27,558 bases of DNA from a virus, in the UHGV virus genome UHGV-1805288. One strand, written 5' to 3'. Each line of letters begins with the position of its first letter. Position 1 is the first letter of the stretch. A model generated the notes under the pieces. The model ran no database searches. It had not been told where the DNA came from and saw nothing but the letters and a program-made list of their open reading frames with translations. A program made the translations under genes and the position numbers. Shown piece after piece: positions 12,136 through 27,448 of the stretch.

Positions 12136-13315
12136 CTTTACTACCTTATATCTCTATAAGGAATAGACTATATCTTTACCATGCTTATTAAAATAAGTTT
12201 AGGTAGACCGTACTTCGAGATTAAATCTCTACTCTCCGCCACGAGATAGTCGTTGAACCTTGCTCTGTTCGAGCCTGGGCTGCGCTGGTTGCCTAATTCA
12301 TTTAATTTTTAAAACATTCACGCTTAGGTTTGTTTCATCCTTACGTTGTAGTTTAAATGACTCTAAAGGGTTTCCCGCAATTCTCGGTCTGATAATCACT
12401 TGACGTTTCCATCAAGGACGACTGTTTCCAAAATTTTATATAATTCATATTTTCTATCTAGATGAATTTTACAAGAATCGTATAGTTGTTTTAATATATA
12501 ATAAGGTTTATTAGTACCACCACAGCGAATATAATAACTATTTTTATTATCATTAGCATTACGTTTTTCTAATTTTACCTCCCAATTTAATATACTACAT
12601 ATCCATAATAATAATTCTTGGGTTCCTTGAATACTAATAGTAAAATTATTATATTGAGATGTTTTTGAAATACTTCCATCTCCATCAAAATATCCTAAAA
12701 TGAATGGTAAATAAAATTCTTCAGAAATAATGGGAGGTTTTAGTATTAAACTTTTTCTTGGTACAATTCCTTTATTACTTAAATCATTAGACATTTTTTT
12801 GCTATTAAGAGTTAAGCGAGCCATTGGAGTATTATTAGAATAACCCTCATTTATAATATACGAATTAATTTTAGCATTTGTATTACAAAACTTCTAAAAT
12901 TTTTTTAAATGGGAAATATCTTTCTAATTGATATTAATTATAATTGAAGCATTATGTTCTCTTACATAATTACATCCATCAGCAGCCAAAAATCCTAGCC
13001 AATAAGCTTTTTCAGATGTATCAATTATTTCAAAAATATCATAATTTCCATTATATTTCTATGTGCGTTCTCGTAAAATAATATTTTCTTTATTTTCATC
13101 TAAAATACGTTTAATAGTTTTACGAGAAACCTAATAATAATCTCCAAGTTTTTGCTATGTCCAATTATTATTATATTTAGTTAATATATCATTAATTTGT
13201 TCTTGTGAAAATTCAATTTTTCTCATAGTTATCGCTCCTGTAATAGATTAAGGGATTATCCTCTAATCTATTTAAAAAACGATATAAATGAATTATAAAA
13301 TTTTGTCCAATCAGC
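12136..13315 (-). mobile_element. group I intron in dnaB, carrying a LAGLIDADG homing endonuclease ORF
   Basis: P-like AAUUGCGGGAAACCC (rc of 12368..12382). R-like CAACGACUAUCUCG (rc of 12242..12255) pairs with S-like AAGAUAUAGUC (rc of 12166..12176) as P7 GACUAU/AUAGUC. P9 hairpin CCUUAUA-GAGA-UAUAAGG (12144..12161). Candidate omega-G at 12136. Junction placed where exon 1 ...LRGAKSI joins exon 2 KVDYGAILL... to recreate the DnaB LRxSGSIEQDADL region. The 5' splice site is the least certain part (P1 lacks a U-G pair); boundaries could shift a few nt. Confidence 0.65.
12396..13226 (-). CDS. intron-encoded LAGLIDADG homing endonuclease (two motifs)
   Basis: ATG 13226..13224 with AGGAG upstream. 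Translation contains KAYWLGFLAADGCNYV and LPFILGYFDGDGSISK. Five in-frame TAG (13155, 13131, 13059, 12924, 12894); stop TGA 12396..12398. Track ORF 12396..12824 is its C-terminal piece. Confidence 0.85.
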
Positions 13316-14569
13316 AATAGATTTCGCTCCTCGCAATAAATTCTGGTCTGGAGTTTCTGAATCGACATATCCACCATTAAGCTGCGTTGCTGACATAATA
13401 AATATACCATATTGATTACATAAGTCTTTTAATTTTACAGATAACATAAATAGAATATTATCTTCACGGAGTTTAACTCCACCACTACGACGAGTAATTT
13501 CTTCAAGAATTTTCATACTTGTTTGAATATAATCAAAGAAAATATACTTTACATCATGGTCACGTAGAGCTTTTTTAATTTCATTCTCTACGTCCTATAA
13601 TGAAAAATCTGGTAGCTCTCGTAAATATAGAGGACTGTCTTTAATAATTTCCGCGGCCTTGTGAATACGTTCTTCTTCATCACCCTCATAAGTATTATTA
13701 AGAATATGTTCTTCATTTACATTAGCAAGAAACGCAAGCATCATAGTTTGCACTTCACTCTTATCTTGCTCTGTGGCGATAAATAAAACCGGTTCACTCA
13801 AACCATTATGAATCCATCCAAATGTTTCATCATAAATTTTATTACAAGCAATATAGCATGCATCTGCAACCATAGAACGAGTCTTACCAGTACCAGTAGC
13901 TGCGGACCGCAAATAAAATTTCTTTAATCGCGCACCACGAGTAATTGTATTTACCAATGGCCCATATAATGGACTTCCTGCTTCTGGATGTTCTTTAAGA
14001 TTATCTAATAGATCAAAGATTCCATCACCCGCTTGAATGGCCGCACCATCTACATTTTTTACATATTCATACTTAACTTCTTCAATTCTATCATCTACTA
14101 ATTGCGCTAAATGTTCTAATGAAGAGTTATCAAGATTATCTTCTTGCTTTTGTTTTTTTTCTACATCAAGAATATTATCAGGGTCATAAATAAATGATAC
14201 GTCAATACCATATTTATCATAAGCCCGTAACAATGACATTTTTTTCAAACGATTATAATAATAATCAAATGATAATAATTTAGCATTTTCAGAAACTTTC
14301 ATTAACCATTCTTCGCCTTTATTAGCATTAAAAATGCCTTCATATTTAGGGCGAGTAGATAAAAAATCAAGAATATTTTCTAATGAAACTTTCTCAGCGC
14401 CCAATTCATGAAGTTTATAAATAGCGCCAAAAACAATACGATGAAAATCATCATTAAAATCTTCATCAGTAATTACATATTTATCTGTATAATCCAATAG
14501 CTGGGGTGTGTTATATACACACCCTATAACTTGGGTGACAGCGGTAGAATCTACATATTTACTTCCCAT
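13316..14569 (-). CDS. dnaB: replicative DNA helicase DnaB-like, exon 1
   Basis: Track ORFs 13595..14593 and 13268..13516 share a frame, joined through TAG 13595..13597. Walker A LRSAATGTGKTRSMVADACYIA; H2-like KYIFFDYIQTS; ATQLNGG...NLLRGAKSI. Start most likely the ATG at 14569 (MGSKYVD...) with GAGGAGG 9 nt upstream. Exon 1 + exon 2 = 1527 nt = 509 codons. Confidence 0.8.
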
Positions 14570-15134
14570 CCGCGGGCGCCTCCTCTTCATCAAGGAATGA
14601 AAATAATTTTCTGCGATATGGTTGTCGCTTTGGTAGAGGAATAACTATTTCTATTACTTTTGGAACGTATTGTTGAATTTCTTTATCTTCATTTACTTGA
14701 TGAGCTAACCATAAATCGTAATAATAATTATAACTATCTTTATAAATATAGGGCACAATACCAATTCCGCCATTAGATTTTTCGATAGAATTGCCTTTTA
14801 CTTCATAAAAATATTTTAATGCTTTTAAAATACCAGAATAAGTATATTTATATTCATTAACATATTGATTAATCTATTTGCGAATCCGCGGATTAAGATA
14901 TTCCACTTGAAATAATTTCATAATATATTTTTCTAATTTCTTTTTATCTTCTTCTTCCTATTGAGCTTGTTCAATAGATTTTTTTTCAGCGGCGAGTTTT
15001 TCTAAATATTCTGGCTAATATTCAGGATGTTCACAATTGGTATGTGCATATCTATTACTACGAGGTTTAATATATTGATAAACTTCAGTATCAAATGTTT
15101 GCTAACAATAAAGACATTTTACATTGTGTGCTAT
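14559..15134 (-). CDS. hypothetical protein with N-terminal C2HC zinc-finger-like motif, just upstream of and overlapping dnaB (position suggests a helicase accessory role); start codon unresolved
   Basis: Frame open from TAA at 15138..15140 to TAA at 14559..14561 apart from 5 in-frame TAG. Translation (I)AHNVKCLYC-TAG-QTFDTEVYQYIKPRSNRYAHTNCEHPEY...YIYKDSYNYYYDLW...EEAPADGK. No in-frame ATG/GTG/TTG lies between the upstream stop and the first Cys; ATA at 15134..15132 sits 7 nt after AAAGGAGGAA. Track ORF 14559..14756 is its C-terminus. Confidence 0.5.
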
Positions 15135-17416: not shown

Positions 17417-17445
17417 ATTATAAAATATTTTTTTAGAATTGTCAA
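17417..17445 (-). promoter_or_regulatory. sigma70-type promoter, perfect TTGACA-N17-TATAAT
   Basis: Plus strand attata 17417..17422 and tgtcaa 17440..17445, 17-nt spacer; about 75 nt upstream of the ATG at 17341. Confidence 0.6.
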
Positions 17446-17447
17446 AT

Positions 17448-18083
17448 TTAATTTACTAAAAACTCTCGCGCATATGGTAATGTTTCAATCCAATCACAAA
17501 ATGCTCGCCATTCAGGTAAGCGATGATCATGGCGCTATTTATAAATATTGCGCAAACAACGATAATTTGTAGTCATACGCGCGGTAAGTCTAAATCCAGC
17601 AGGATTAGAATAAAGAATTTCAAGATATCTACGTTTTGCTTCTTCTTGTAGCTAATTCCGTAGATTTTCATCTTCTGGACCAAGAGCTTCAATACGAGAA
17701 ATGAGATTGTTGTAATCATTTACCTTTTCTCGCATAATATCAATAATGCGCTTATCCACATATTCGATATACTATTGATCTAAATCAAACTTAGTAATGC
17801 GGTGCATTGTTGATTGAGAAGAAACAAATTCAAGGAATCTATATCGCTCAGCTTCTACCCATGCTTTATTAGTAAAACAAAGGTCAAAATTGACTCGAAT
17901 ACCAGTCAGAAACTAATGATGTGCGGTATTACCAGTTTTCGTAGCATTTACTAAACGAACACCACGCTAGATATCCTTATCTTCTATAGGACGCATTTCA
18001 GCTTTTGTACGCATAGGATAACCAGAAGCAATAATGCTTTCTTCAAGGTCATAAATTTTTACATTGGATACAATCTAATTCAT
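17448..18083 (-). CDS. thyX: possible flavin-dependent thymidylate synthase (ThyX-like), tentative
   Basis: ATG 18083 with GAGG 6 nt upstream; frame open to TAA 17448..17450 apart from 6 in-frame TAG. Weak resemblance to ThyX blocks: KAWVEAERYRFLEFVSSQSTMHR (compare RQWFRHRIASYNELSGRY) and TNYRCLRNIYKQRHDHRLPEW (compare [20 protein letters not shown]). Confidence 0.35.
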
Positions 18084-18090
18084 TTATACC

Positions 18091-19065
18091 TCACTTAATA
18101 CTATAACCAAATTCTTTAGCTTTAAAATAATTCTACCAATAATCTTCTCGTGTATCAAGCTCTTCACGAGAACATTCTTCGATTACTTCAAAACTAAAAT
18201 TTTCAACTCCAAGAGCTAACATAGCAGGATAAAGTTTATTGCGGGTTGGCGTTTCCGCTCCAATACCACGCTTGATATGCTACTTCCATCTTGCTGCCAG
18301 GTCAACAGCCTATCCTACATAGCACATTTGGTTATCAAGATTAGTAATCTTATAAATACCAGTATGAGTTCCTGAACCAATTACTCGACCAATTAAATCA
18401 GTTGTTGGTTTTTCATAATAACTTTTCCAAATAACTTTATTTAATGTTTCTTTATCGCGTAAATGAGGTTCAATTGACCGTAGTAGTTTAATTTCTTCAA
18501 TATCCACAGATGATAACTATAATTTATAAAAATTAGCTTGATTTTTAATTTCTTCAGTACGTTTAGCTGCTTCAATAGCCGCGTCAACTTCACGAGTTAA
18601 TTTAAAAATCTTATCATCTAAAACTTCTAATTCTCTTTGTTTCTCTTGGATTAAATTTACTAAATCTTCTGAGCAACCAGCCATCAAGTTTTTATAACTA
18701 GATTTATAATCTTGTTTAGCCTACTCATATTTACTTTCTTCTAGCTCTAAATCGTGTGCGATATTAGTTCTAGCTAATTCCATAGACTATTTAAAAAATA
18801 CTTCCGCTGATTGCTTGGCCTAGTTTTGTAATAGGTCTAGACTATTAGAAACTTCTTCTCTTTGAATCTTTAATGAACTTAACTCTTTTGTGAGAGTTTC
18901 TTTTTCATCAACTAGTTGTTTATTAAAATTGTATAACTAACGATTCTCTGTTTCGATTTTCTAATCGTATCGCTGTGTTAATTTTAATTTGGGGCGTAAA
19001 ATTAAATACATTAATACACATCCAAGAATTAATGCGATACTACCTACAATTAAATAAATAGTCAT
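18091..19065 (-). CDS. protein with N-terminal transmembrane helix, coiled-coil middle and C-terminal GIY-YIG-like nuclease domain (DUF4041/T5orf172-like architecture)
   Basis: ATG 19065; frame open to TGA 18091..18093 apart from 9 in-frame TAG. N-terminus MTIYLIVGSIALILGCVLMYLILRP is hydrophobic; middle is K/E-rich heptad-like; C-terminus THTGIYKITNLDNQMCYVG-TAG-AVDLAARWK...REDYW-TAG-NYF. Track ORF 18310..18507 is an internal piece. Confidence 0.5.
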
Positions 19066-19077
19066 ATCTAATAAAAT

Positions 19078-19097
19078 GGGGCAGATTACTCTGCCCC
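19078..19097 (-). terminator. terminator hairpin
   Basis: ggggcaga-ttac-tctgcccc (8-bp GC-rich stem) after the stop at 19118, followed on the minus strand by AUUUUAUUAGAU. Confidence 0.55.
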
Positions 19098-19117
19098 ATA
19101 ATTAATCTATGTTTAAA

Positions 19118-19387
19118 TTACTCAGCATCAGTGGCATCAGGGTCAAAAGCCATGCCAGCCTCGGTCAAGCTCAGAAGCTTGATGGGCTTGTGAGAACCAT
19201 CCTCAAGCTCCATCTCAGCGGGAGTGCGAATGCCAAGACCCTTGCGCTGAATAGCAGAGGTAAAAATACCATCAACAGAACGCTTCTCGAGACCGAGAGC
19301 AGCAGCAACATCAGCGGCGGTCACATCCTGACCCTAAACACTCTTCAAATATTCAAAAACCTTACGAGAATTTTCCTTCATAGCCAT
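19118..19387 (-). CDS. small winged-helix-like DNA-binding protein (89 aa), GC-rich gene
   Basis: Track ORF 19118..19324 extends through TAG 19334..19336 to ATG 19387. Translation MAMKENSRKVFEYLKSV-TAG-GQDVTAADVAAALGLEKRSVDGIFTSAIQRKGLGIRTP... Stop TAA 19118..19120. Base composition is visibly more GC-rich than the flanks. Confidence 0.45.
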
Positions 19388-19453
19388 AATAAATAAATCT
19401 CCTTAATAAAAATAAAATTTTAATTTTTAAGCATTTCTTTTGCTTATGTAAAC

Positions 19454-19482
19454 ATTATATCAAAAATTTTTTTATTTGTCAA
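19454..19482 (-). promoter_or_regulatory. sigma70-type promoter, perfect TTGACA-N17-TATAAT
   Basis: Plus strand attata 19454..19459 and tgtcaa 19477..19482, 17-nt spacer; the -35 overlaps the last codons of the upstream small gene. Confidence 0.6.
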
Positions 19483-19705: not shown

Positions 19706-19734
19706 ATTATATCACAAATTTTTTATTTTGTCAA
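19706..19734 (-). promoter_or_regulatory. sigma70-type promoter, perfect TTGACA-N17-TATAAT (TG-extended -10)
   Basis: Plus strand attata 19706..19711 and tgtcaa 19729..19734, 17-nt spacer; the -35 overlaps the ligase stop codon. Confidence 0.6.
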
Positions 19735-20855
19735 AAAAGATCGGTTAAACGACAATCTTTGACATCTTTATCATCACGGAAACCCTTAAAAAAGGCATGA
19801 CGCAAAGTATGGTCATCCTTGTTTTTTTCCATACACTGAATAGCAACAACACGATTTAAATATTTTTCTGGATGCTTAGCAAAATCTGCTTTTAATTCAT
19901 CTGTAAGACCTGATGATACTGTTCCAATTTCTATAATTTTATTATTATCATCATAAGCACCAAGTCGAATAGATGTTTTCCATCCATAAAAATAAGGTTT
20001 AGTAACAGGTTCCATTGGAGTTTTAATCATTACACATCCAGCATCATTTAAATATCTACCATGGTAAAGATCACCACTCATAGTTTCAATCCAATATTCC
20101 CAAGTATTTAATTCTTTGCCATTATATTGTTTTGTAGCATCTTCAAACCCGATACAAATACAATCCAAAAAATCCATTTTCTTTACTTTAATTGAAGACC
20201 AAGCAGGTCGTTTATCAGGAGCATACACAGCATCTCGTTTTTTTAAAACAACACCCTCTTCACCCGCATTGAGAGCAGCTGCTGTAAACTCTTGAATATC
20301 ATCTTCTACGCTTTTGGCCAATTCTAAATAATTATATTGTTGTAAATTAAACTTATTCCAAATTTTTGTAAGAATTTGATATCTAACCCATGCACCTTCA
20401 TTTTGTAAATCTACACCATTATATTTAATAACATCATGTAGATAAAAATGAATTAAACCGCTTGTTTGCTGTCTAGTAATAGCTTCATCACTCAGACAGC
20501 CCATAATTTTTGTCACATCTTTTGAAGTTTTTCTAGGATAATAAATTTCACCAATCAAGATAGTGCCTGCTGGTAATTCGGTAAATGCTTCTTTAATATG
20601 AGGAACATTTGCTAATTTTTCAGTAAGAATACCAGTTGTTTTACTTACATTGCGACTAAATAAATAATCATAATGTTCAGTTTTTTCATACTGATACCAA
20701 TATCCATCCTTTTTTAATTCAGCAAAATATTTGCCACTATTACATACAGATGGAAACATATTTTCTTTACCATCAGGCAATTTCCAAATTTTCATTGCTT
20801 GGATACACTCCGCTTCAGGAGCATATTTATCAAGTAATTCTTTTGAAAAACTCAT
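19731..20855 (-). CDS. ATP-dependent DNA ligase
   Basis: Track ORF, 374 aa, no in-frame TAG. Motif I AELKKDGYWYQ (KxDG), motif III ILIGEIYY, motif IV EGVVLKK, motif V SIKVKK. ATG 20855 with AGGAAAAG upstream; stop TGA. Confidence 0.85.
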   Translation of the reverse strand: MSFSKELLDKYAPEAECIQAMKIWKLPDGKENMFPSVCNSGKYFAELKKDGYWYQYEKTEHYDYLFSRNVSKTTGILTEKLANVPHIKEAFTELPAGTILIGEIYYPRKTSKDVTKIMGCLSDEAITRQQTSGLIHFYLHDVIKYNGVDLQNEGAWVRYQILTKIWNKFNLQQYNYLELAKSVEDDIQEFTAAALNAGEEGVVLKKRDAVYAPDKRPAWSSIKVKKMDFLDCICIGFEDATKQYNGKELNTWEYWIETMSGDLYHGRYLNDAGCVMIKTPMEPVTKPYFYGWKTSIRLGAYDDNNKIIEIGTVSSGLTDELKADFAKHPEKYLNRVVAIQCMEKNKDDHTLRHAFFKGFRDDKDVKDCRLTDLF

Positions 20856-20948: not shown

Positions 20949-23333
20949 TCAAATCTTAGTAATAGATTTTACATTACCAGTATTAATAAGCGCATTACCC
21001 AATCCGCCACGAGTTCCAATAGGAATATCTTTGGCAGAAATACAAATAGTAGTTTTTTCACCAATGATTAAAATATTATCATCATCAGAAATTAAAGTAC
21101 CACCAATAATACGCTTTTCTGTACTATCTACTTTATATACAGAACTACCTTTCCCTCCACGTCTTTGAACAGGATATTCACTAAGAGGGATTTTCTTGCC
21201 GAGTCCGCAATATGAAAATACAGCAAGAGTATCATTTGTATCTCGGATAGGTAAAGCTGCAACTACTTCATCACCTTCTTTAAGGGTAATAGCCTTAACT
21301 CCTGTACTTACACGACTAGCCGAAGACAAATCTTCAGTAGCAATATGAATAGCCATACCATTTTTAGTAAGAATAAGTACATCTTCATTTTTAATCAAAG
21401 ATACTGAAGCTAGACTATCTCCATCACGGAAATGAGTTGCAATAAGTCCACTCTTTTTAGTATTGATATATTCACTGAGCGCAGTCTTTTTAATTAAACC
21501 ATTCTTAGTTATAAACAATACATATTCCGCTTGGGTATCTTTATAAATAGAATACATAGTAGAAGGCTGTTCATCAGCGCTCATTTTAGTCAAAAGTTTA
21601 ATAGATGTTCCAAGAGAAGCATTAGTACCCACAGGAATATTATTTACTAATAACCGATACATTAAACCCTTATTACTAAAAATCATAAGTGAATCAACAG
21701 TATTTGTGCGTAGTACACAAGAAGTAATATCATCTTGTGACTTTACTCCCTTACCATTGCGCTTCTGAGTGCGAAAACTCGTGGTGGGAATACGCTTAAT
21801 GGTGCCACCTTCAGTCATTACAACTACACATTTCTCAGGTTCAACATATACAGTCTCTTTTTCTTCTTTTGGAATTGTATAATTAGTAAGTTTAGTGCGG
21901 CGCTCATCACCATAATTTTTCTTTAATATTTTAATTTGCTCAATTAAAACATTATCTCTATGGTCTTTATCATTAATAATTTTTAAACATTCAGCAACAA
22001 TTTCTTCATTTTTACGTTTTTCATCAACTAATTCATTTTTATCAATACGAGTTAACCTTGATAACTTCATATCAAGAATAGCATTTGCTTGAACTTCATC
22101 AATAGATAAGAAATTAATTAGTTTATTGCGCGCATCATCTTTATTAGCTGATTGTTTAATTAATTCAATTACTTCATTAATTTTATCAATAGCTGCGAGT
22201 AACCCAACTAAAATATGGATACGAGTTTCCGCCTTTTCTTTGTCAAATTTAGTTGCGTTAAGTAATACATTAGTTTGATGGTCAACATAGGCTTTAATAA
22301 GAGTCTTTAATGAACATAATTGCGGAGTGCCATTAATAATGAAATTCATATTATAAGAGAGAGTAGTTTGTAAATCAGTAAGCTTAAAAATAGTTTCAAG
22401 CGCAGAATTTACATCTATACCTTTTTTAATGGTGAATACAAGTTTATTATTACCAATACTACTTTCATCATCAAAATCTTCAATAAATTTTTCTAAAATT
22501 TCAATATTTTTATTGATATCTTCCTTAATCTTATTGCGATAAGTACGATAAGGAATGGAAGTAAATGTAATTACTCGATCCTTAATTTCATAATCACCGC
22601 GCACTTTAAGAGAAATTGCTGATTTACCCGTATCATAAGCCACATAAATATCTTTTTGATTAATAATTATGCCGCCCAGAGGAAAATCAGGGCCAAGAAT
22701 ATATTTCATTAACTCTTGGGTATTAATTTCACCATTAGCTTGAATATAAGCAATAATACCATCACAAACTTCAGAAAGATTGGCGGGTAAACTATTATGG
22801 CTCATAGAAATACCAATAGCTTCTCTACCATTTACAAGAGCATTAGGAAATAATGCTGGAAGAATGATTGGCTCCATAAATTCACCATTATAAGTTTCTT
22901 TCATAGGAACAACATTCTTTTTAAATGAATTAAACATTAAGTCCGCATACTTACTAGGCTTAGCCTCTGTATAGCGGCTTGATGCAACCATTGAGTTATC
23001 TTCTTGGGTCCCCAAAGCACCTTGACCTTGAATAAGAGGATAGCGCATTAAATAATCTTGTGCCATCTTATAAAGAACACCATAACAACTAGCATCACCA
23101 TGGAAATAACTAGTCATAAGAGTAGAGCCAACTAAACTGTTACATTTCTTAGTTTTACTTTTATTAGTCATTTTAAGATAGTCTTCCATTGTCCAAAGAA
23201 TTTTGCGCTGAGCACTTAGAAGACCATCTTCTGCGTTAGGAATTGCGCGATCAGTAAGCACTTCCTCAGCATAGGTAAGGAAATTGTCTTTAGCTTCATC
23301 TAAAATATCAACTTCTGTAATATAATTTTCCAT
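20949..23333 (-). CDS. gyrA: type IIA topoisomerase subunit A (GyrA/ParC-like)
   Basis: Track ORF, 794 aa, no in-frame TAG. QRKILWTMED...YFHGDASCYGVLYKMAQDYLMRYPLIQGQGALGT...SSRYTEAK contains the active-site Tyr region. ATG 23333 with AAGGAG upstream. Confidence 0.9.
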   Translation of the reverse strand: MENYITEVDILDEAKDNFLTYAEEVLTDRAIPNAEDGLLSAQRKILWTMEDYLKMTNKSKTKKCNSLVGSTLMTSYFHGDASCYGVLYKMAQDYLMRYPLIQGQGALGTQEDNSMVASSRYTEAKPSKYADLMFNSFKKNVVPMKETYNGEFMEPIILPALFPNALVNGREAIGISMSHNSLPANLSEVCDGIIAYIQANGEINTQELMKYILGPDFPLGGIIINQKDIYVAYDTGKSAISLKVRGDYEIKDRVITFTSIPYRTYRNKIKEDINKNIEILEKFIEDFDDESSIGNNKLVFTIKKGIDVNSALETIFKLTDLQTTLSYNMNFIINGTPQLCSLKTLIKAYVDHQTNVLLNATKFDKEKAETRIHILVGLLAAIDKINEVIELIKQSANKDDARNKLINFLSIDEVQANAILDMKLSRLTRIDKNELVDEKRKNEEIVAECLKIINDKDHRDNVLIEQIKILKKNYGDERRTKLTNYTIPKEEKETVYVEPEKCVVVMTEGGTIKRIPTTSFRTQKRNGKGVKSQDDITSCVLRTNTVDSLMIFSNKGLMYRLLVNNIPVGTNASLGTSIKLLTKMSADEQPSTMYSIYKDTQAEYVLFITKNGLIKKTALSEYINTKKSGLIATHFRDGDSLASVSLIKNEDVLILTKNGMAIHIATEDLSSASRVSTGVKAITLKEGDEVVAALPIRDTNDTLAVFSYCGLGKKIPLSEYPVQRRGGKGSSVYKVDSTEKRIIGGTLISDDDNILIIGEKTTICISAKDIPIGTRGGLGNALINTGNVKSITKI

Positions 23334-23344
23334 TAATAATCTCC

Positions 23345-25240
23345 TTACACAAAATTAAAACCAAGGGTTGTAGCATTTTCATAAATATACTGCTTACGAG
23401 GATTCACATTAGGCCCTTCAAGAATATCAAGAAGTTTAACTGTAGCCTCAGCATCACTAACAGTTAAGCGCTTATAACGCTGATTATCAAAACAAATCTC
23501 CTTGAGGGTGGCCGCATTCAGCTCACCGAGACCTTTCGCACGCAAGAGGTCATAAGAACCTGTATGACTAGCTTTCCAATCGTCAAGTTCCTTTTCACTA
23601 TAACAAAAATATTCTTTGTCTTTTTGTTTGATAATATACAGCGGAGTTATAGCTCGATATAATTTACCTGCTTCGACAAGGGGTCTCATATAAGTATAAA
23701 AGAAGGTAATTAATAGTAACTCAATAGCCGCGCCATCTGAATCTTGATCTGAAGTAATAATAATTTTATCAAAATTCATCTTATTGACATCAAAATTATT
23801 ACCAAATCCAGCGCCAATTACTCGAATAATATCACTAATCTCCTGATTAGCTAAAAGTTTTTCAAGAGATTGTTTTAGAGGACTAATAATTTTACCTCTT
23901 AAAAGGTAAATACAATCAGTCTTTACATTACGAGCTTCAACCGCTGAAGTAGCTGCTGACTTGCCCTCAACTAGAAGTAAATTGCGTTGAGAAGGGTCTT
24001 TATTAACACAATCAAAAAATTTATCACTAATAGCCATTTTAGCCTTTAAACCTTTTTCTTTAGGCTGACGAACAGCTTCCTTAGCCTTTTTAGCTTTCTC
24101 GCGTGCGGTTCGTGCTAATAAAGCTTTATCAATGATTGCTTTCGCATCTTTTGGGTTACTATTTAACCAGACTTTTAAATCTTTAGAAACCAATCTTTGA
24201 ACAGCGGTTCTAGCTTCACTACTGGATAAAACATCCTTAGTCTGACCTGAAAATACTGGATCAGGCATAATAAATGAAAGGACGAGACTTAAACCTTCTT
24301 TAAGCTCTTCACCAGTAATATTACTATCTTTATCTTTCAAAAGTTTATTATCTCGCGCGTATTCATTAATCGATTGAGTAAGTGCGGTGCGGAAACCAGT
24401 TAAATGAGTCCCACCACTATTGGGAATTGAATTTGTATAGAGTTTATAATTATCATTATAACTCTCATTATATAACATAGCAATTTTAACACCAATTCTA
24501 TCTTCCATATTTTCAGTATAAAAAATTGATGTTAATTTCTTTTTATTCTTATTAATATCTTCAATATAATCAAGGATACCATGTTGAGAAGTAATTACTT
24601 CTTCGGGTTTATCCTTGTATTTAAATTTAAATGTAAGACCAGGAGAGAGATAAGCTAACTCTTGAATTTGATTTCTAAGAGAAGTGTAATCAAGCTCAAT
24701 AGTTTCTTTAAAAATTTCAGCATCTGGTAAAAACTTTACCCAAGTACCAGTTTCTTTTCCAGCCCATTTTTCTTCTTTATAATCAATAAGTTTACCACGA
24801 ACGAATGAAGCAACTGCGTGTTTACCATCACGAAATGATACAACTTGAAAATGTTCAGATAAGGCATTAGTAGCTTTCGCACCAACACCATTCATACCAC
24901 CTGAAGTATTATAACCAGTTTTACCATTGCTATCAAACTTAGCACCAGTATGAAGCTTAGTATAAATATTTACAAGTGTTTCACTACCATCTTTCGCTTT
25001 GCCAAATGGCACACCACGTCCATTATCACGAATTTCAACATTATTATCTTTATCAATTATAATATCGCATTCAGTGCAATGACCATTTAAATATTCATCT
25101 ACACAATTTGAAATAATTTCAAGCGTAATATGTTTGATACCATCCGCGCCAATCGAGCCGATATACATACCAGGTCTGAGTCGAATCGCGTCAATACCCT
25201 CAAGAGTTTTTATTGATTTTACACCATAATCTTCTGACAA
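23345..25240 (-). CDS. gyrB: type IIA topoisomerase subunit B (GyrB/ParE-like)
   Basis: Track ORF, 631 aa, no in-frame TAG. GHKL ATPase motifs (LEGIDAIRLRPGMYIGS, NGRGVP, GGMNGVGAKA) and TOPRIM (LLLVEGKSAA, DQDSDGAAI). TTG start at 25240 with GGAGGAGG upstream. Confidence 0.9.
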   Translation of the reverse strand: MSEDYGVKSIKTLEGIDAIRLRPGMYIGSIGADGIKHITLEIISNCVDEYLNGHCTECDIIIDKDNNVEIRDNGRGVPFGKAKDGSETLVNIYTKLHTGAKFDSNGKTGYNTSGGMNGVGAKATNALSEHFQVVSFRDGKHAVASFVRGKLIDYKEEKWAGKETGTWVKFLPDAEIFKETIELDYTSLRNQIQELAYLSPGLTFKFKYKDKPEEVITSQHGILDYIEDINKNKKKLTSIFYTENMEDRIGVKIAMLYNESYNDNYKLYTNSIPNSGGTHLTGFRTALTQSINEYARDNKLLKDKDSNITGEELKEGLSLVLSFIMPDPVFSGQTKDVLSSSEARTAVQRLVSKDLKVWLNSNPKDAKAIIDKALLARTAREKAKKAKEAVRQPKEKGLKAKMAISDKFFDCVNKDPSQRNLLLVEGKSAATSAVEARNVKTDCIYLLRGKIISPLKQSLEKLLANQEISDIIRVIGAGFGNNFDVNKMNFDKIIITSDQDSDGAAIELLLITFFYTYMRPLVEAGKLYRAITPLYIIKQKDKEYFCYSEKELDDWKASHTGSYDLLRAKGLGELNAATLKEICFDNQRYKRLTVSDAEATVKLLDILEGPNVNPRKQYIYENATTLGFNFV

Positions 25241-26341: not shown

Positions 26342-27448
26342 TTATTCCTCCTTAAATAATCTATATAATAAGACTATTAATTCTTCACGAGTAATAAAAC
26401 TTTTATATCGCATATTACCCTTAGTATCACCTTGAATAATTCCTTTATTTTCCGCCCATTTGCGAGCATCCACTGACCAAGAGCCAGGGTCTTTAGTAGC
26501 TAATTCTTTAAGGTAAACCGCCATCTAATTATTAAATGTTTGCTATTCTTTTGTTGTTACTGTTGGAGTAGTAGGTTGTGGTGTTGAAGGCACTTCAGTT
26601 ATGGTGTCTTCAATTTTAGTAATATACTATAAGGAAACCCACCCCTTATCAGTCTAACCCCAACCATTATTTTCTGCGGTAATAGTTATTAATGTTCCCT
26701 AGGGATAACTATATACTTTTGTAAATGTAGTGCCAGGGCCAGAGCGCACGTTTAAGGAAGATGCCACAGTTTTAGCTTGATATTTTACTTTAGTCGATGT
26801 TGAAATATTATTTAATAATAATTCTACATCATCACGCACATTATCCATAGTTTTACCATATTTTTTAAACCAATGTAAAACATCACCATGATTACTACCA
26901 TATCCAAGTTTATAACTATCTGCGTGACATAGGATAGTGGGGATATTAGTTGTGCTTACTTTTACTGTTGCTTTTGGATTAATATTATAAATTAAACATA
27001 AATAAGCTGTTAATTCACAGGCTTCTTTATAAACAGCATTAAAATAAGTTTCATCAAGGAGATTATCCTCACATATTTCAAATTGTATCCAGCCTGTATT
27101 ACAGCTACCTTTAGAACCAGAACCGCAACCCCATGGGCGATAATTCCATGGCATAGTCTATATGGTAGTAACAGTGCCATCAGCTAATTTACCTATAAAA
27201 GCATTTAATCCACTCTATTGGGTTGTTGAATTATAATCAGTTTTAGCAGTATTTTTACCTATTTTTTGAATAAGTGTTTTATAATTTTTATCTGTGATGC
27301 TAGGCTAAACATAACGTTTAAGGTTAGGATTATTAGCTCCAGTGCTATGCCATAAAATACCTTTAATATTCATTACTCTTGTGCTCTTATAACATGTGCT
27401 ATTGGTCATTATACATTCAAGAGGCGGATTATTTTTTGAGTATTTCAT
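26342..27448 (-). CDS. endolysin: N-acetylmuramoyl-L-alanine amidase domain + SH3b-like domain + C-terminal SLH domain
   Basis: Track ORFs 26699..27154 and 26342..26524 share a frame with the region up to ATG 27448 (AAAGGAG upstream); 8 in-frame TAG, stop TAA. Amidase-like GILWHSTGANNP...NTGWIQFEICED...CHADSYKLGYGSNHGDV; SH3-like SLNVRSGPGTTFTKVYSYP-TAG-GTLITITAENNGWG; PT-rich linker; SLH-like SWSVDARKWAENKGIIQGDTKGNMRYKSFITREELIVLLYRL. Confidence 0.75.

What the first reader, a model, noticed from the sequence alone, without database searches (positions are those of the whole stretch)
18091..19065. Membrane-anchored coiled-coil protein with a C-terminal GIY-YIG-like nuclease domain
The 325-aa product has an N-terminal hydrophobic helix, a long K/E-rich coiled-coil-like middle and a C-terminal GIY-YIG-like domain (GIYKITN...CYVG). 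This resembles the DUF4041 plus T5orf172 architecture whose function is unknown. It carries 9 TAG and sits between a possible ThyX gene and a terminator, away from the intron-borne endonucleases, so it may not be a homing enzyme. A role in superinfection exclusion or host DNA processing is speculation.
Basis: partly seen in the sequence, partly recalled or inferred. Interest (0 to 1): 0.5.

Follow-up and report, generated by a model that had tools for sequence, protein, structure and literature searches.

The report
Membrane-anchored phage GIY-YIG nuclease
A gut-phage gene encodes a DNA-cutting enzyme held at the cell membrane by a long helical stalk; the layout resembles the recently described bacterial defence nuclease SNIPE but is built from different parts, and the protein belongs to a large, unstudied phage family.

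Summary
Window 18091-19065 (minus strand) encodes a 324-aa protein with 9 in-frame TAG codons read as Gln. It has an N-terminal membrane anchor, a roughly 150-residue coiled-coil-like helix, a conserved helical module and a C-terminal GIY-YIG nuclease domain.

None of 61 family members hits DUF4041 or T5orf172, and profile comparison with SNIPE finds nothing outside the coiled coil. The architectural analogy is still apt. That architecture now has a known function: SNIPE, a membrane-bound nuclease that cuts phage DNA during injection.

The gene is not a homing endonuclease. It keeps a fixed place in the replication module across hundreds of uncultured gut and rumen phages. It usually follows a highly conserved 89-aa gene and an intrinsic terminator.

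It is consistently TAG-rich, whereas the adjacent gyrase and ligase genes carry almost no TAG.

Best reading: a membrane-confined DNA endonuclease whose production is throttled. Its most likely role is SNIPE-like exclusion of incoming DNA. Host-DNA breakdown and processing of replication intermediates remain open. It is a new variant of a known kind.

The parts
18091..19065 (-). Coding sequence of the membrane-anchored GIY-YIG protein: 324 aa plus a TGA stop at 18091-18093, with 9 in-frame TAG codons read as Gln.
   Evidence: More than 120 full-length homologues at 57-99% identity. 762 clusters at 50% identity with E<=1e-30.
18997..19062 (-). N-terminal transmembrane anchor, residues 2-23. Predicted topology is N-out / C-in.
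   Evidence: Kyte-Doolittle 19-residue mean 2.76. The anchor is kept across the family despite about 24% identity. K/R average 0.06 before and 3.2 after the helix. No n-region charge and no AxA cleavage motif (read from the sequence).
18538..18996 (-). Coiled-coil-like stalk, residues 24-176. It begins with a basic cluster, RPKLKLTQR.
18370..18534 (-). Family-specific conserved helical module, residues 178-232 (FYKLQL...DIEEIK.LR...LNKVIWKSYYEKPTTDLIGRVIG). No known family matches it.
   Evidence: 57% mean identity against 24% for the stalk. Nearly invariant Y180, I192, K210, I212, Y216, R227, G230. Short strand near residue 180, then helices 186-196 and 205-228, pLDDT about 95. No Pfam hit. 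No similarity to SNIPE/DUF4041.
18094..18369 (-). I-TevI-type GIY-YIG nuclease domain, residues 233-324. The protein ends right after the domain, so there is no DNA-binding domain.
18310..18312 (-). TAG codon for Gln252, a family-invariant residue next to the YVG motif. It is one of the 9 TAG codons. The others are at 18961-63, 18937-39, 18820-22, 18787-89, 18721-23, 18517-19, 18280-82 and 18133-35.
   Evidence: Q252 is invariant in 61 members. Homologues carry CAA/CAG in 55 of 69 and TAG in 12 of 69 at this position.
19076..19099 (-). Intrinsic terminator hairpin (10 bp stem, 6 GC pairs) followed by a T-run. It ends 10 nt before the ATG of the nuclease gene, and there is no Shine-Dalgarno motif in between.
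   Evidence: The same arrangement is seen in most of the 17 related loci inspected. It also occurs in 50 of 55 viral loci that have the 89-aa gene upstream; 43 of those 55 lack an SD-like motif.
19118..19387 (-). Conserved 89-aa acidic protein with a winged-helix look ('p89'), directly upstream. It may be a partner or regulator of the nuclease; this is untested.
   Evidence: Present upstream in 55 of 64 viral loci. 70-85% identical where GyrA is about 47%. A 26%-identical relative lies directly downstream of the Phass-1 homologue. GC is 46-49% against 32% for the window. No family hit.
19454..19482 (-). Perfect 12/12 sigma-70-type promoter with a TG extension, in front of the 89-aa gene. It is the nearest upstream promoter-like site that could feed read-through transcription into the nuclease gene.
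17448..18083 (-). Downstream neighbour of 211 aa, phrog_6721. Its start is 8 nt after the nuclease stop and has a GAGGT Shine-Dalgarno motif. It resembles ThyX only at motif level.
   Evidence: No Thy1/ThyX hit. A true ThyX or phrog_6721 gene lies next to family members in L110, L111 and L115.

Best explanation
The gene encodes a single-pass membrane protein. A 22-residue anchor sits at the extreme N terminus, with the N terminus outside and the rest in the cytoplasm. The anchor is followed by a stalk of about 150 residues that probably oligomerises, then a conserved helical module, then an I-TevI-type GIY-YIG nuclease domain. The active site is intact, but the DNA-binding domain that gives homing endonucleases their target is missing.

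It is a vertically inherited gene of the replication module in a large clade of mostly TAG-recoded gut and rumen phages. It is not a mobile homing enzyme.

Inferred mechanism: the anchor confines a nuclease with little sequence specificity to the inner face of the membrane, so it can cut only DNA that is there. By analogy with SNIPE, the most likely substrate is DNA of a second phage entering the already infected cell (superinfection exclusion). The phage's own genome has already entered and replicates out of reach.

Output of the enzyme looks restrained and delayed in three ways. An intrinsic terminator lies directly in front of the start codon. There is no ribosome-binding site. Nine TAG codons yield a harmless anchor-only peptide unless TAG is being suppressed.

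Shown: architecture, fold, conservation of catalytic residues, synteny, TAG bias, terminator.

Inferred: topology, oligomerisation, catalytic activity, substrate, biological role.

The confidence of 0.4 is for the exclusion role. For the molecular description alone (an anchored, stalked, probably active, non-homing GIY-YIG nuclease) I would put it at about 0.85.
For: Architecture and fold.

Catalytic residues: Y238, Y249, R259, H263 and E307 are invariant in 61 members that average 32% identity, and they map onto I-TevI Y6, Y17, R27, H31 and E75.

Positive-inside charge distribution is family-wide.

Not mobile: the same position (GyrA - ligase - 64 aa - 89 aa - this gene - ... - YorF - AAA_24 - DnaB - primase) is seen in a Hadza gut contig, in MAG contigs and in most of 80 viral loci. 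Phass-1, at 28% identity, has it next to GyrA.

Precedent: SNIPE has the same order of parts (N-out anchor, elongated cytoplasmic region, C-terminal GIY-YIG-superfamily nuclease). It is membrane-bound, cleaves phage DNA during injection, and becomes toxic to the host chromosome when the anchor is removed (PMC13190303). The SNIPE gene itself sits in a lambdoid prophage beside ren/P/O.

The conservation gradient (variable N-terminal part, conserved nuclease) matches the one reported for SNIPE.

Restraint on expression: the terminator is followed directly by the ATG with no SD. TAG makes up 106 of 387 Gln codons in this gene against 3 of 498 in the adjacent GyrA, GyrB and ligase genes over 19 loci (Fisher p=4e-38).
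Against: - No sequence homology to SNIPE beyond the general layout. DUF4041, the SNIPE module that binds DNA and the tape measure protein, is absent.
- The conserved module here is not basic: 9 K/R against 8 D/E.
- Exclusion and defence genes are usually patchy accessory genes. This one is retained at a fixed locus across deep divergence, which fits a role in the phage's own DNA metabolism at least as well.
- TAG-richness argues against very early production, which would suit exclusion best.
- A straight stalk would be about 22 nm long (my estimate from roughly 150 helical residues at 1.5 A each). It would hold the nuclease well away from the membrane surface unless it bends or lies along the membrane.
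- Asn90 of I-TevI is Ser in this subclade.
- Nothing here measures activity, localisation or phenotype.
Confidence: 0.4

Rival explanations
1. Host-chromosome breakdown for nucleotide salvage, as with T4 endonuclease II. The tethered nuclease nicks host DNA lying near the membrane. Exonucleases and nucleotide-metabolism enzymes then recycle it. The tether and the late production spare phage DNA.
Against: The anchor is a universal family feature. In SNIPE, anchoring is precisely what prevents cutting of the host chromosome. A soluble nuclease plus DNA modification is the known solution (T4; my own knowledge). No DNA-modification gene was identified in the window.
Confidence: 0.25
2. A nuclease that processes the phage's own DNA at a membrane-attached replication site, for example by nicking or debranching replication and recombination intermediates. 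It would be a structural part of the replication module.
For: It behaves like a core gene, fixed between the topoisomerase/ligase genes and the helicase/primase genes over deep divergence. The C-terminal half is as conserved as the replication proteins. No Holliday-junction resolvase was recognised in the 27.5-kb window. A neighbouring 120-aa protein gives a weak hit to the 'replication initiation and membrane attachment' family (E=0.035). From my own knowledge, membrane-anchored organisers of phage replication exist, such as phi29 p16.7 (anchor + coiled coil + DNA-binding domain).
Against: No I-TevI-type GIY-YIG enzyme is known to do this. A more distant lineage with a related module (L029) lacks the gene at this position. 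The terminator, missing SD and heavy TAG load look more like restraint on a dangerous enzyme than like a stoichiometric replisome part.
Confidence: 0.15
3. A non-cutting tether. The GIY-YIG domain would serve only to bind DNA and attach phage or host DNA to the membrane.
For: The layout is the same as the membrane-anchored DNA organiser phi29 p16.7 (my own knowledge). Asn90 of I-TevI is replaced by Ser in this subclade.
Against: All five other catalytic residues, including the metal-binding Glu, are invariant across 61 members at 32% mean identity. That would be unexpected if catalysis were dispensable. Other family members keep the Asn, with C-terminal endings of the 'GYN' type.
Confidence: 0.07
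4. A free-standing homing endonuclease, or a decayed remnant of one.
For: The best sequence and structure matches are homing endonuclease catalytic domains. The same window holds intron-type GIY-YIG ORFs with 29-32% identity in the catalytic domain.
Against: There is no DNA-binding domain; the protein ends with the catalytic domain. The N-terminal anchor and stalk are conserved. The gene keeps a fixed syntenic position and its divergence tracks the neighbouring genes. Classical GIY-YIG homing enzymes in the same genomes have the opposite layout, with the nuclease first and the DNA-binding domain after it.
Confidence: 0.03

Closest known systems
SNIPE / PD-lambda-1 (DUF4041 + T5orf172; Saxton et al., Nature 2026, PMC13190303)
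   Same: The order of parts and the predicted topology match: a single anchor at the extreme N terminus (N-out), a basic cluster, an elongated helical cytoplasmic region, and a C-terminal nuclease of the GIY-YIG superfamily. The conservation gradient is also the same (variable N-terminal part, conserved nuclease). SNIPE is phage-borne too: its gene lies in a lambdoid prophage beside the replication genes.
   Different: No detectable homology. No DUF4041 in 61 members. The nuclease is PF01541 (I-TevI type), not T5orf172. hhalign gives under 1% probability without the coiled coil. No PD-Lambda-1 model matched the window protein or is among the top 25 PADLOC families for the 61 members. The protein is 324 aa against 500 aa for SNIPE. 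It is a fixed gene of the replication module of large uncultured phages, not a patchy defence gene of bacteria and prophages.
I-TevI catalytic domain (intron-encoded GIY-YIG homing endonuclease; PDB 1ln0, 1mk0)
   Different: I-TevI has the nuclease at the N terminus, followed by a linker and a C-terminal DNA-binding domain, and it is intron-borne. Here the nuclease is C-terminal, there is no DNA-binding domain, an N-terminal anchor and stalk are added, N90 is Ser, and the gene is syntenic rather than mobile.
T4 endonuclease II (DenA; PDB 2wsh)
   Different: EndoII is a small soluble protein without anchor or stalk. Only 16% identity.
Uzume (UzuA), a single-gene defence system with a C-terminal GIY-YIG domain
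   Same: The GIY-YIG domain lies at the C terminus of a protein of about 280 aa. 48 of 61 family members hit the UzuA model (best E 2.7e-9).
   Different: The match covers only the nuclease domain (profile positions 184-275 of 278). The N-terminal parts do not match. The mechanism of Uzume was not described in the papers I could read.

Membership tests
GIY-YIG nuclease superfamily, I-TevI-like catalytic domain (PF01541 / TIGR01453) | Profile match above the curated cut-off | tested here: met
   PF01541 scores 40.9 bits against a cut-off of 22.6. TIGR01453 scores 69 bits against 56.05. 61 of 61 family members hit PF01541.
GIY-YIG nuclease superfamily, I-TevI-like catalytic domain (PF01541 / TIGR01453) | Catalytic residues: the Tyr of GIY, the Tyr of YIG, Arg, His, the metal-binding Glu, and Asn | tested here: met
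   Y238, Y249, R259, H263 and E307 are invariant and align with I-TevI Y6, Y17, R27, H31 and E75. The sixth residue, N90, is Ser322 in this subclade but Asn in many other members. So 5 of 6 are kept.
GIY-YIG nuclease superfamily, I-TevI-like catalytic domain (PF01541 / TIGR01453) | The GIY-YIG alpha/beta fold | tested here: met
GIY-YIG nuclease superfamily, I-TevI-like catalytic domain (PF01541 / TIGR01453) | Metal-dependent DNA cleavage | not testable with these tools
   Needs a biochemical assay.
GIY-YIG homing endonucleases (I-TevI, Seg type) | A DNA-binding domain joined to the catalytic domain by a linker | tested here: not met
   The protein ends at the last element of the catalytic domain. 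No NUMOD, HTH or zinc-finger hit. Classical homing enzymes in related loci do carry such domains, as does the intron ORF in the window.
GIY-YIG homing endonucleases (I-TevI, Seg type) | Intron- or intein-borne, or sporadically inserted between conserved genes | tested here: not met
   The gene keeps a fixed syntenic position in the related loci examined.
SNIPE / PD-lambda-1 | N-terminal membrane anchor with the nuclease on the cytoplasmic side | tested here: met
   This is a prediction only: hydrophobicity and the positive-inside rule. For SNIPE the topology was measured.
SNIPE / PD-lambda-1 | [quoted passage not shown] | tested here: not met
   No hit at E<=1 for the window protein. It is not among the 25 most-matched Pfam families for the 61 members at E<=0.01. 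The conserved module against the SNIPE profile gives probability 0.1-0.2%. All listed SNIPE homologues carry PF13250.
SNIPE / PD-lambda-1 | A T5orf172 / MUG113-type nuclease domain (PF10544, PF13455) | tested here: not met
   Only PF01541 is found. The nuclease regions do not align beyond the 'IYxIxN' motif. No PD-Lambda-1 model matched the window protein or is among the top 25 PADLOC families for the 61 members.
SNIPE / PD-lambda-1 | Cleaves phage DNA during injection; interacts with the tape measure protein | not testable with these tools
   Needs infection assays like those in PMC13190303.
Uzume (UzuA) | Full-length match to the UzuA model | tested here: not met
   Only profile positions 184-275 of 278 (the nuclease domain) are matched, E=8.5e-6. 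48 of 61 members match the UzuA model.

The most novel reading that the evidence does not exclude
A large clade of gut and rumen phages has turned the catalytic domain of a homing endonuclease into a membrane-tethered nuclease on a stalk of fixed length. The result is a convergent, phage-owned counterpart of SNIPE. It would tell self from non-self by place and time rather than by sequence or modification. It would cut DNA at the membrane (a rival phage's incoming genome, or host DNA pushed to the periphery) only after the phage has switched the cell to reading TAG as Gln. The tightly linked, highly expressed 89-aa protein would be its regulator or immunity factor. On this reading, stop-codon recoding would serve as a safety interlock for a dangerous enzyme.
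Probability: 0.3. Interest if true: 0.75.

Novelty: new variant of a known kind. Interest (0 to 1): 0.6.

Why it matters
SNIPE (2026) established that a nuclease can distinguish foreign DNA from self simply by being anchored where foreign DNA enters. Suppose this family works the same way. Then the principle would have arisen at least twice from unrelated parts, here from an I-TevI-type domain without DUF4041. It would also be used by phages themselves, on a large scale: 762 clusters at 50% identity and at least 506 viral contigs.

The family is essentially absent from the phage genome collection searched. Only one uncultured-virome genome, Phass-1, has it, and there it is annotated as two fragments because of TAG. 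Standard annotation therefore misses it.

The consistent TAG-richness, next to genes almost free of TAG, gives a concrete and testable example of recoding used to gate one hazardous enzyme.

The conserved gene pair with a terminator in between (89-aa protein, then nuclease) is a defined unit to test experimentally.

Tried and rejected
- DUF4041 / T5orf172 membership. Rejected after Pfam on the window protein and on 61 members, PADLOC, and profile-profile comparison with 30 SNIPE homologues.
- How the SNIPE sequence was obtained. I took a primer from the paper's supplement, matched it to an E. coli genome, and translated the locus.
- A first hhalign result (72.6% probability, A3 residues 132-213 against SNIPE 101-174) looked like a lead. 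It vanished when the coiled coil was cut off, so I attribute it to coiled-coil composition.
- Three 'tandem paralogues' in L016. Only the first is a family member. The other two are classical homing endonucleases with the nuclease at the N terminus.
- ThyX identity of the downstream gene. There is no hit in Pfam, PDB or BLAST against a true ThyX; only a motif-level resemblance remains.
- A leaderless transcript from a promoter overlapping the terminator. No consistent -10 element lies at the right distance in the upstream sequences printed (read by eye).
- Signal peptide instead of anchor. Rejected because there is no charged n-region, the hydrophobic stretch is 22 residues long, there is no AxA site, and basic residues follow it.
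- The AlphaFold database (afdb50) was not available for fold search.
- The first structure model, from 12 close homologues, was poor in the C-terminal half. It was replaced by a model from 61 diverse members.
- No tRNA gene in the window, so the source of TAG suppression was not seen.
- Cultured-phage relatives. tblastn with two family members found only Phass-1 beyond the nuclease domain. Window DNA has no close relative in the phage collection.
- Literature on Uzume gave no mechanism.
Full report
**What is there**

Window 18091-19065 holds an ORF on the minus strand, with ATG at 19065 and TGA at 18091-18093. It has 324 sense codons, nine of them TAG.

The whole window is a TAG-recoded phage fragment.
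- It is 32% GC, and all recognisable genes are on the minus strand.
- Long-ORF coverage rises from 18.7 to 27.3 kb when TAG is read as sense.
- It carries a replication module: Pol III alpha (interrupted by a GIY-YIG ORF), a RecD-like helicase, a RecJ-like DHH protein, primase, DnaB (with a LAGLIDADG ORF nearby), AAA_24, a YorF-like protein, ligase, GyrA, GyrB, RNase H and a lysin.

TAG = Gln is shown directly. At the window's TAG positions 252, 262, 311 and 82, homologues use CAA/CAG in 55, 43, 40 and 29 of about 69 sequences. Gln252 is invariant in 61 diverse family members.

**Anatomy of the protein**

- Residues 2-23 are strongly hydrophobic. The Kyte-Doolittle 19-residue mean is 2.76, and nothing beyond residue 40 exceeds 0.91.
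- The hydrophobic stretch is followed by a basic cluster, RPKLKLTQR.
- Across 150 family representatives the anchor is kept in at least 111, although identity there is only about 24%. The rest look like fragments or mis-called starts.
- K/R residues average 0.06 before the anchor and 3.2 in the 12 residues after it. By the positive-inside rule the N terminus is outside and the rest is cytoplasmic. There is no charged n-region and no AxA site, so this is an anchor and not a cleaved signal peptide.
- With an alignment of 61 diverse members, AlphaFold gives mean pLDDT 92.8. The model has one helix over residues 2-176, a short strand near 180, two helices (186-196 and 205-228), and an alpha/beta domain over 236-324.
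- The long helix has a hydrophobic repeat of 3.5-3.65 residues that no shuffle out of 2000 reaches. That fits a coiled coil.
- The stalk length is constrained (median 160 residues from anchor to the FY[RK] motif, IQR 148-169), although its sequence is not.

**The nuclease domain**

- Pfam GIY-YIG (E=2.5e-10), TIGR01453 'group I intron endonuclease' (E=5.8e-19), and PHROG and PADLOC homing-endonuclease models all match residues 235-323.
- The alignment maps I-TevI Y6, Y17, R27, H31 and E75 onto Y238, Y249, R259, H263 and E307. All five are invariant in 61 members at 32% mean identity.
- N90 is Ser322 in this subclade but Asn in many other members.
- The protein stops right after the domain, so the linker and DNA-binding domain that define homing endonucleases are absent.
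- Residues 178-232 form a family-specific module (FYKLQL..DIEEIK.LR...LNKVIWKSYYEKPTTDLIGRVIG). It is nearly as conserved as the nuclease (57% against 65% identity, compared with 24% for the stalk) and matches no known family.

**The family and where it lives**

- The word-indexed search returned more than 120 full-length homologues at 57-99% identity, on contigs of up to 339 kb.
- The exhaustive profile search found 762 clusters at 50% identity with E<=1e-30. The top 150 were almost all 300-360 aa.
- All hits in species-representative genomes are on gut or rumen MAG contigs of 20-180 kb that carry the same phage genes, so they are probably mis-binned phages.
- IMG/VR holds at least 506 encoding contigs.
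- In the 50,697-record phage collection only Phass-1 has the family beyond the nuclease domain. Phass-1 is a human-gut virome assembly of the 'code 15 clade'. There the gene is annotated as two hypothetical fragments because of TAG.
- BFVD has two unnamed proteins with the whole architecture.
- I found no paper describing the family.

**Not a homing enzyme**

- The gene order GyrB-(RNase H)-GyrA-ligase-64 aa-89 aa-[this gene]-(small)-phrog_6721-~120 aa-YorF-AAA_24-...-DnaB-primase is kept in a Hadza gut contig, in MAG contigs and in most of 80 viral loci.
- Identity of this protein falls from 64% to about 31% in step with its neighbours.
- Phass-1, at 28% identity, has it directly after GyrA.
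- A few distant members sit instead next to a true ThyX (L115, Pfam Thy1 4.5e-34; L111 by eye) or next to phrog_6721 (L110).
- Classical GIY-YIG homing enzymes in these same genomes have the opposite layout.
- The window's own intron-type GIY-YIG ORFs share only 29-32% identity in the catalytic domain.
- The simplest history is an old capture of a homing-endonuclease catalytic domain.

**Signs of restrained expression**

1. The 89-aa gene upstream has a perfect 12/12 promoter (19482-19454) and is followed by a strong intrinsic terminator (19099-19076). The ATG of the nuclease gene lies 10 nt after the hairpin, with no Shine-Dalgarno motif. Its downstream neighbour, by contrast, has GAGGT.
2. 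Among 55 viral loci with the 89-aa gene upstream, 50 have a terminator-like hairpin plus T-run in between, and 43 lack an SD-like motif.
3. The gene is TAG-rich in 17 of 19 loci (1-16 TAG codons each). The adjacent GyrA, GyrB and ligase genes have almost none. Pooled counts are 106 TAG of 387 Gln codons against 3 of 498, Fisher p=4e-38. Some loci are near-duplicates, so the p-value is inflated, but the contrast is plain.
4. In the window, TAG density (2.8 per 100 codons) equals that of phrog_6721 and is slightly above that of the lysin, the RecJ-like protein and the RecD-like helicase.
5. Without suppression, translation would stop at codon 35 and leave only the anchor.

The reading that recoding delays late or hazardous genes comes from the literature, as summarised in PMC10607447.

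**Comparison with SNIPE**

- It has an N-out single-pass anchor, a cytoplasmic DUF4041 domain and a GIY-YIG-type nuclease.
- It is membrane-localised and cleaves lambda DNA during injection.
- Without its anchor it goes to the nucleoid, makes double-strand breaks and is toxic.
- DUF4041 binds DNA and probably the tape measure protein.

I recovered the SNIPE gene from an E. coli genome using a published primer. It lies in a lambdoid prophage beside ren/P/O.

Tests of membership fail.
- No DUF4041 or T5orf172 in 61 members.
- No PD-Lambda-1 PADLOC model matched the window protein or is among the top 25 families for the 61 members.
- hhalign of the family against 30 SNIPE homologues gave 72.6% probability, but only over the coiled coil and its end.
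- With the coiled coil removed, the conserved module and the nuclease domain score below 1%.

The two share a design, not ancestry that I can detect.

**What it most likely does**

Secure: it is a membrane-anchored, stalked, probably active GIY-YIG endonuclease. It is kept as a fixed gene of the replication module, and its production is restrained.

The universal anchor says that the membrane location is the point of the protein. The one characterised protein with this layout uses the anchor to keep a non-specific nuclease off the chromosome and on incoming DNA. I therefore favour SNIPE-like exclusion of superinfecting DNA, at about 0.4.

Points against this reading:
- There is no DUF4041 equivalent with a basic surface (9 K/R against 8 D/E).
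- The gene behaves like a core gene.
- Its TAG load argues against very early production.
- A straight stalk would be about 22 nm long by my estimate.

The rivals are:
- Host-DNA breakdown for salvage, at 0.25. This is supported by the T4 EndoII similarity and by the recurrent neighbourhood of ThyX, a ThyX-like gene and NrdD.
- Processing of the phage's own DNA at a membrane-attached replication site, at 0.15.
- A non-cutting tether, at 0.07.
- A homing enzyme, at 0.03.

**The 89-aa neighbour**

- It is acidic (net -4) and looks like a winged helix.
- It is GC-rich: 46-49% against 32% for the window.
- It is the most conserved protein of the module: 70-85% identity where GyrA is about 47%.
- It lies directly upstream of the nuclease gene in 55 of 64 viral loci.
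- In Phass-1 a 26%-identical relative lies directly downstream instead. Adjacency kept with the order reversed hints at a functional link.
- L029 has what looks by eye like a relative, though BLAST did not report it, and no family member next to it. So the protein probably also has a role of its own.
- No library identifies it.

**Verdict**

- This is a new variant of a known kind. It is a large, unannotated phage family that joins an I-TevI-type nuclease to a membrane anchor and stalk.

Noticed in passing
window 19118-19387 (-), promoter 19454-19482, terminator 19076-19099: An 89-aa acidic protein with a winged-helix look. It is GC-rich (46-49% against 32% for the window), has a perfect consensus promoter and a strong terminator, and is the most conserved protein of the module. 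It lies next to the nuclease gene in most relatives; in Phass-1 the order is reversed. No hit in Pfam, PHROGs or PDB. Both strands are open here (there is also a plus-strand ORF at 19109-19396).
   Followed up: partly
window 17448-18083 (-): The 211-aa neighbour matches phrog_6721 (unknown function). It has no significant ThyX match, but it carries ThyX-like motifs (RYRFLEFVSSQS; NPAGFR..TTNYRCLRNIYKQR). It is also TAG-rich, with 6 TAG of 9 Gln codons. It may be a divergent protein of the ThyX fold.
   Followed up: partly
window-wide; e.g. GyrA 20949-23333, GyrB 23345-25168, ligase 19731-20855 versus RecJ-like 8261-10000, RecD-like 5540-6730, lysin 26342-27448: TAG use is sharply two-class within one module. 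Gyrase, ligase and the C-terminal part of Pol III alpha have no TAG codons. The RecJ-like gene has 12, the RecD-like gene 8, the lysin 8, phrog_6721 6 and the nuclease gene 9. This suggests two translation classes among the DNA-metabolism genes.
   Followed up: partly
window 1912-2730 (-), 3-218 (-), 12396-13226 (-): Pol III alpha is split (306-1730 and 2926-5310) around a classical GIY-YIG ORF with C-terminal HTH-type hits. A second, partial GIY-YIG ORF lies at the window edge. A LAGLIDADG-like ORF lies in the DnaB/primase region.
   Followed up: no
window 19706-19734, 19454-19482, 17417-17445 (-): Three perfect 12/12 TTGACA-17-TATAAT promoters, two of them with a TG extension, lie in front of the 66-aa, 89-aa and YorF-like genes. 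That fits recognition by a host sigma-70/sigma-A polymerase, and together with the GAGG-type ribosome sites it fits a Firmicute-like host.
   Followed up: no
window 7367-8209 (-): A 280-aa protein with an N-terminal signal-like segment and a Phage_lysozyme2 (tail lysozyme) domain sits inside the replication module, far from the lysin at 26342-27448.
   Followed up: no
L001 (Phass-1, OQ749652.1) about 5467-6447: The Phass-1 homologue (326 aa, 8 TAG) is deposited as two separate hypothetical proteins (WIC39637.1 and WIC39636.1), because TAG was read as a stop in this gene.
   Followed up: yes
L035 1776-3278 (E. coli 118UI, NZ_CP032515.1): The SNIPE gene (annotated 'DUF4041 domain-containing protein', 500 aa) lies in a lambdoid prophage, between a gene for a P22AR C-terminal-domain protein and ren / replication P / O. 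The primer matched 131 of 5426 complete E. coli genomes.
   Followed up: partly
window 14559-14921 (-): The 120-aa protein just upstream of DnaB gives a weak hit (E=0.035) to Pfam DnaB_2, 'replication initiation and membrane attachment'. It may be a helicase-loader component. The hit is below threshold.
   Followed up: no
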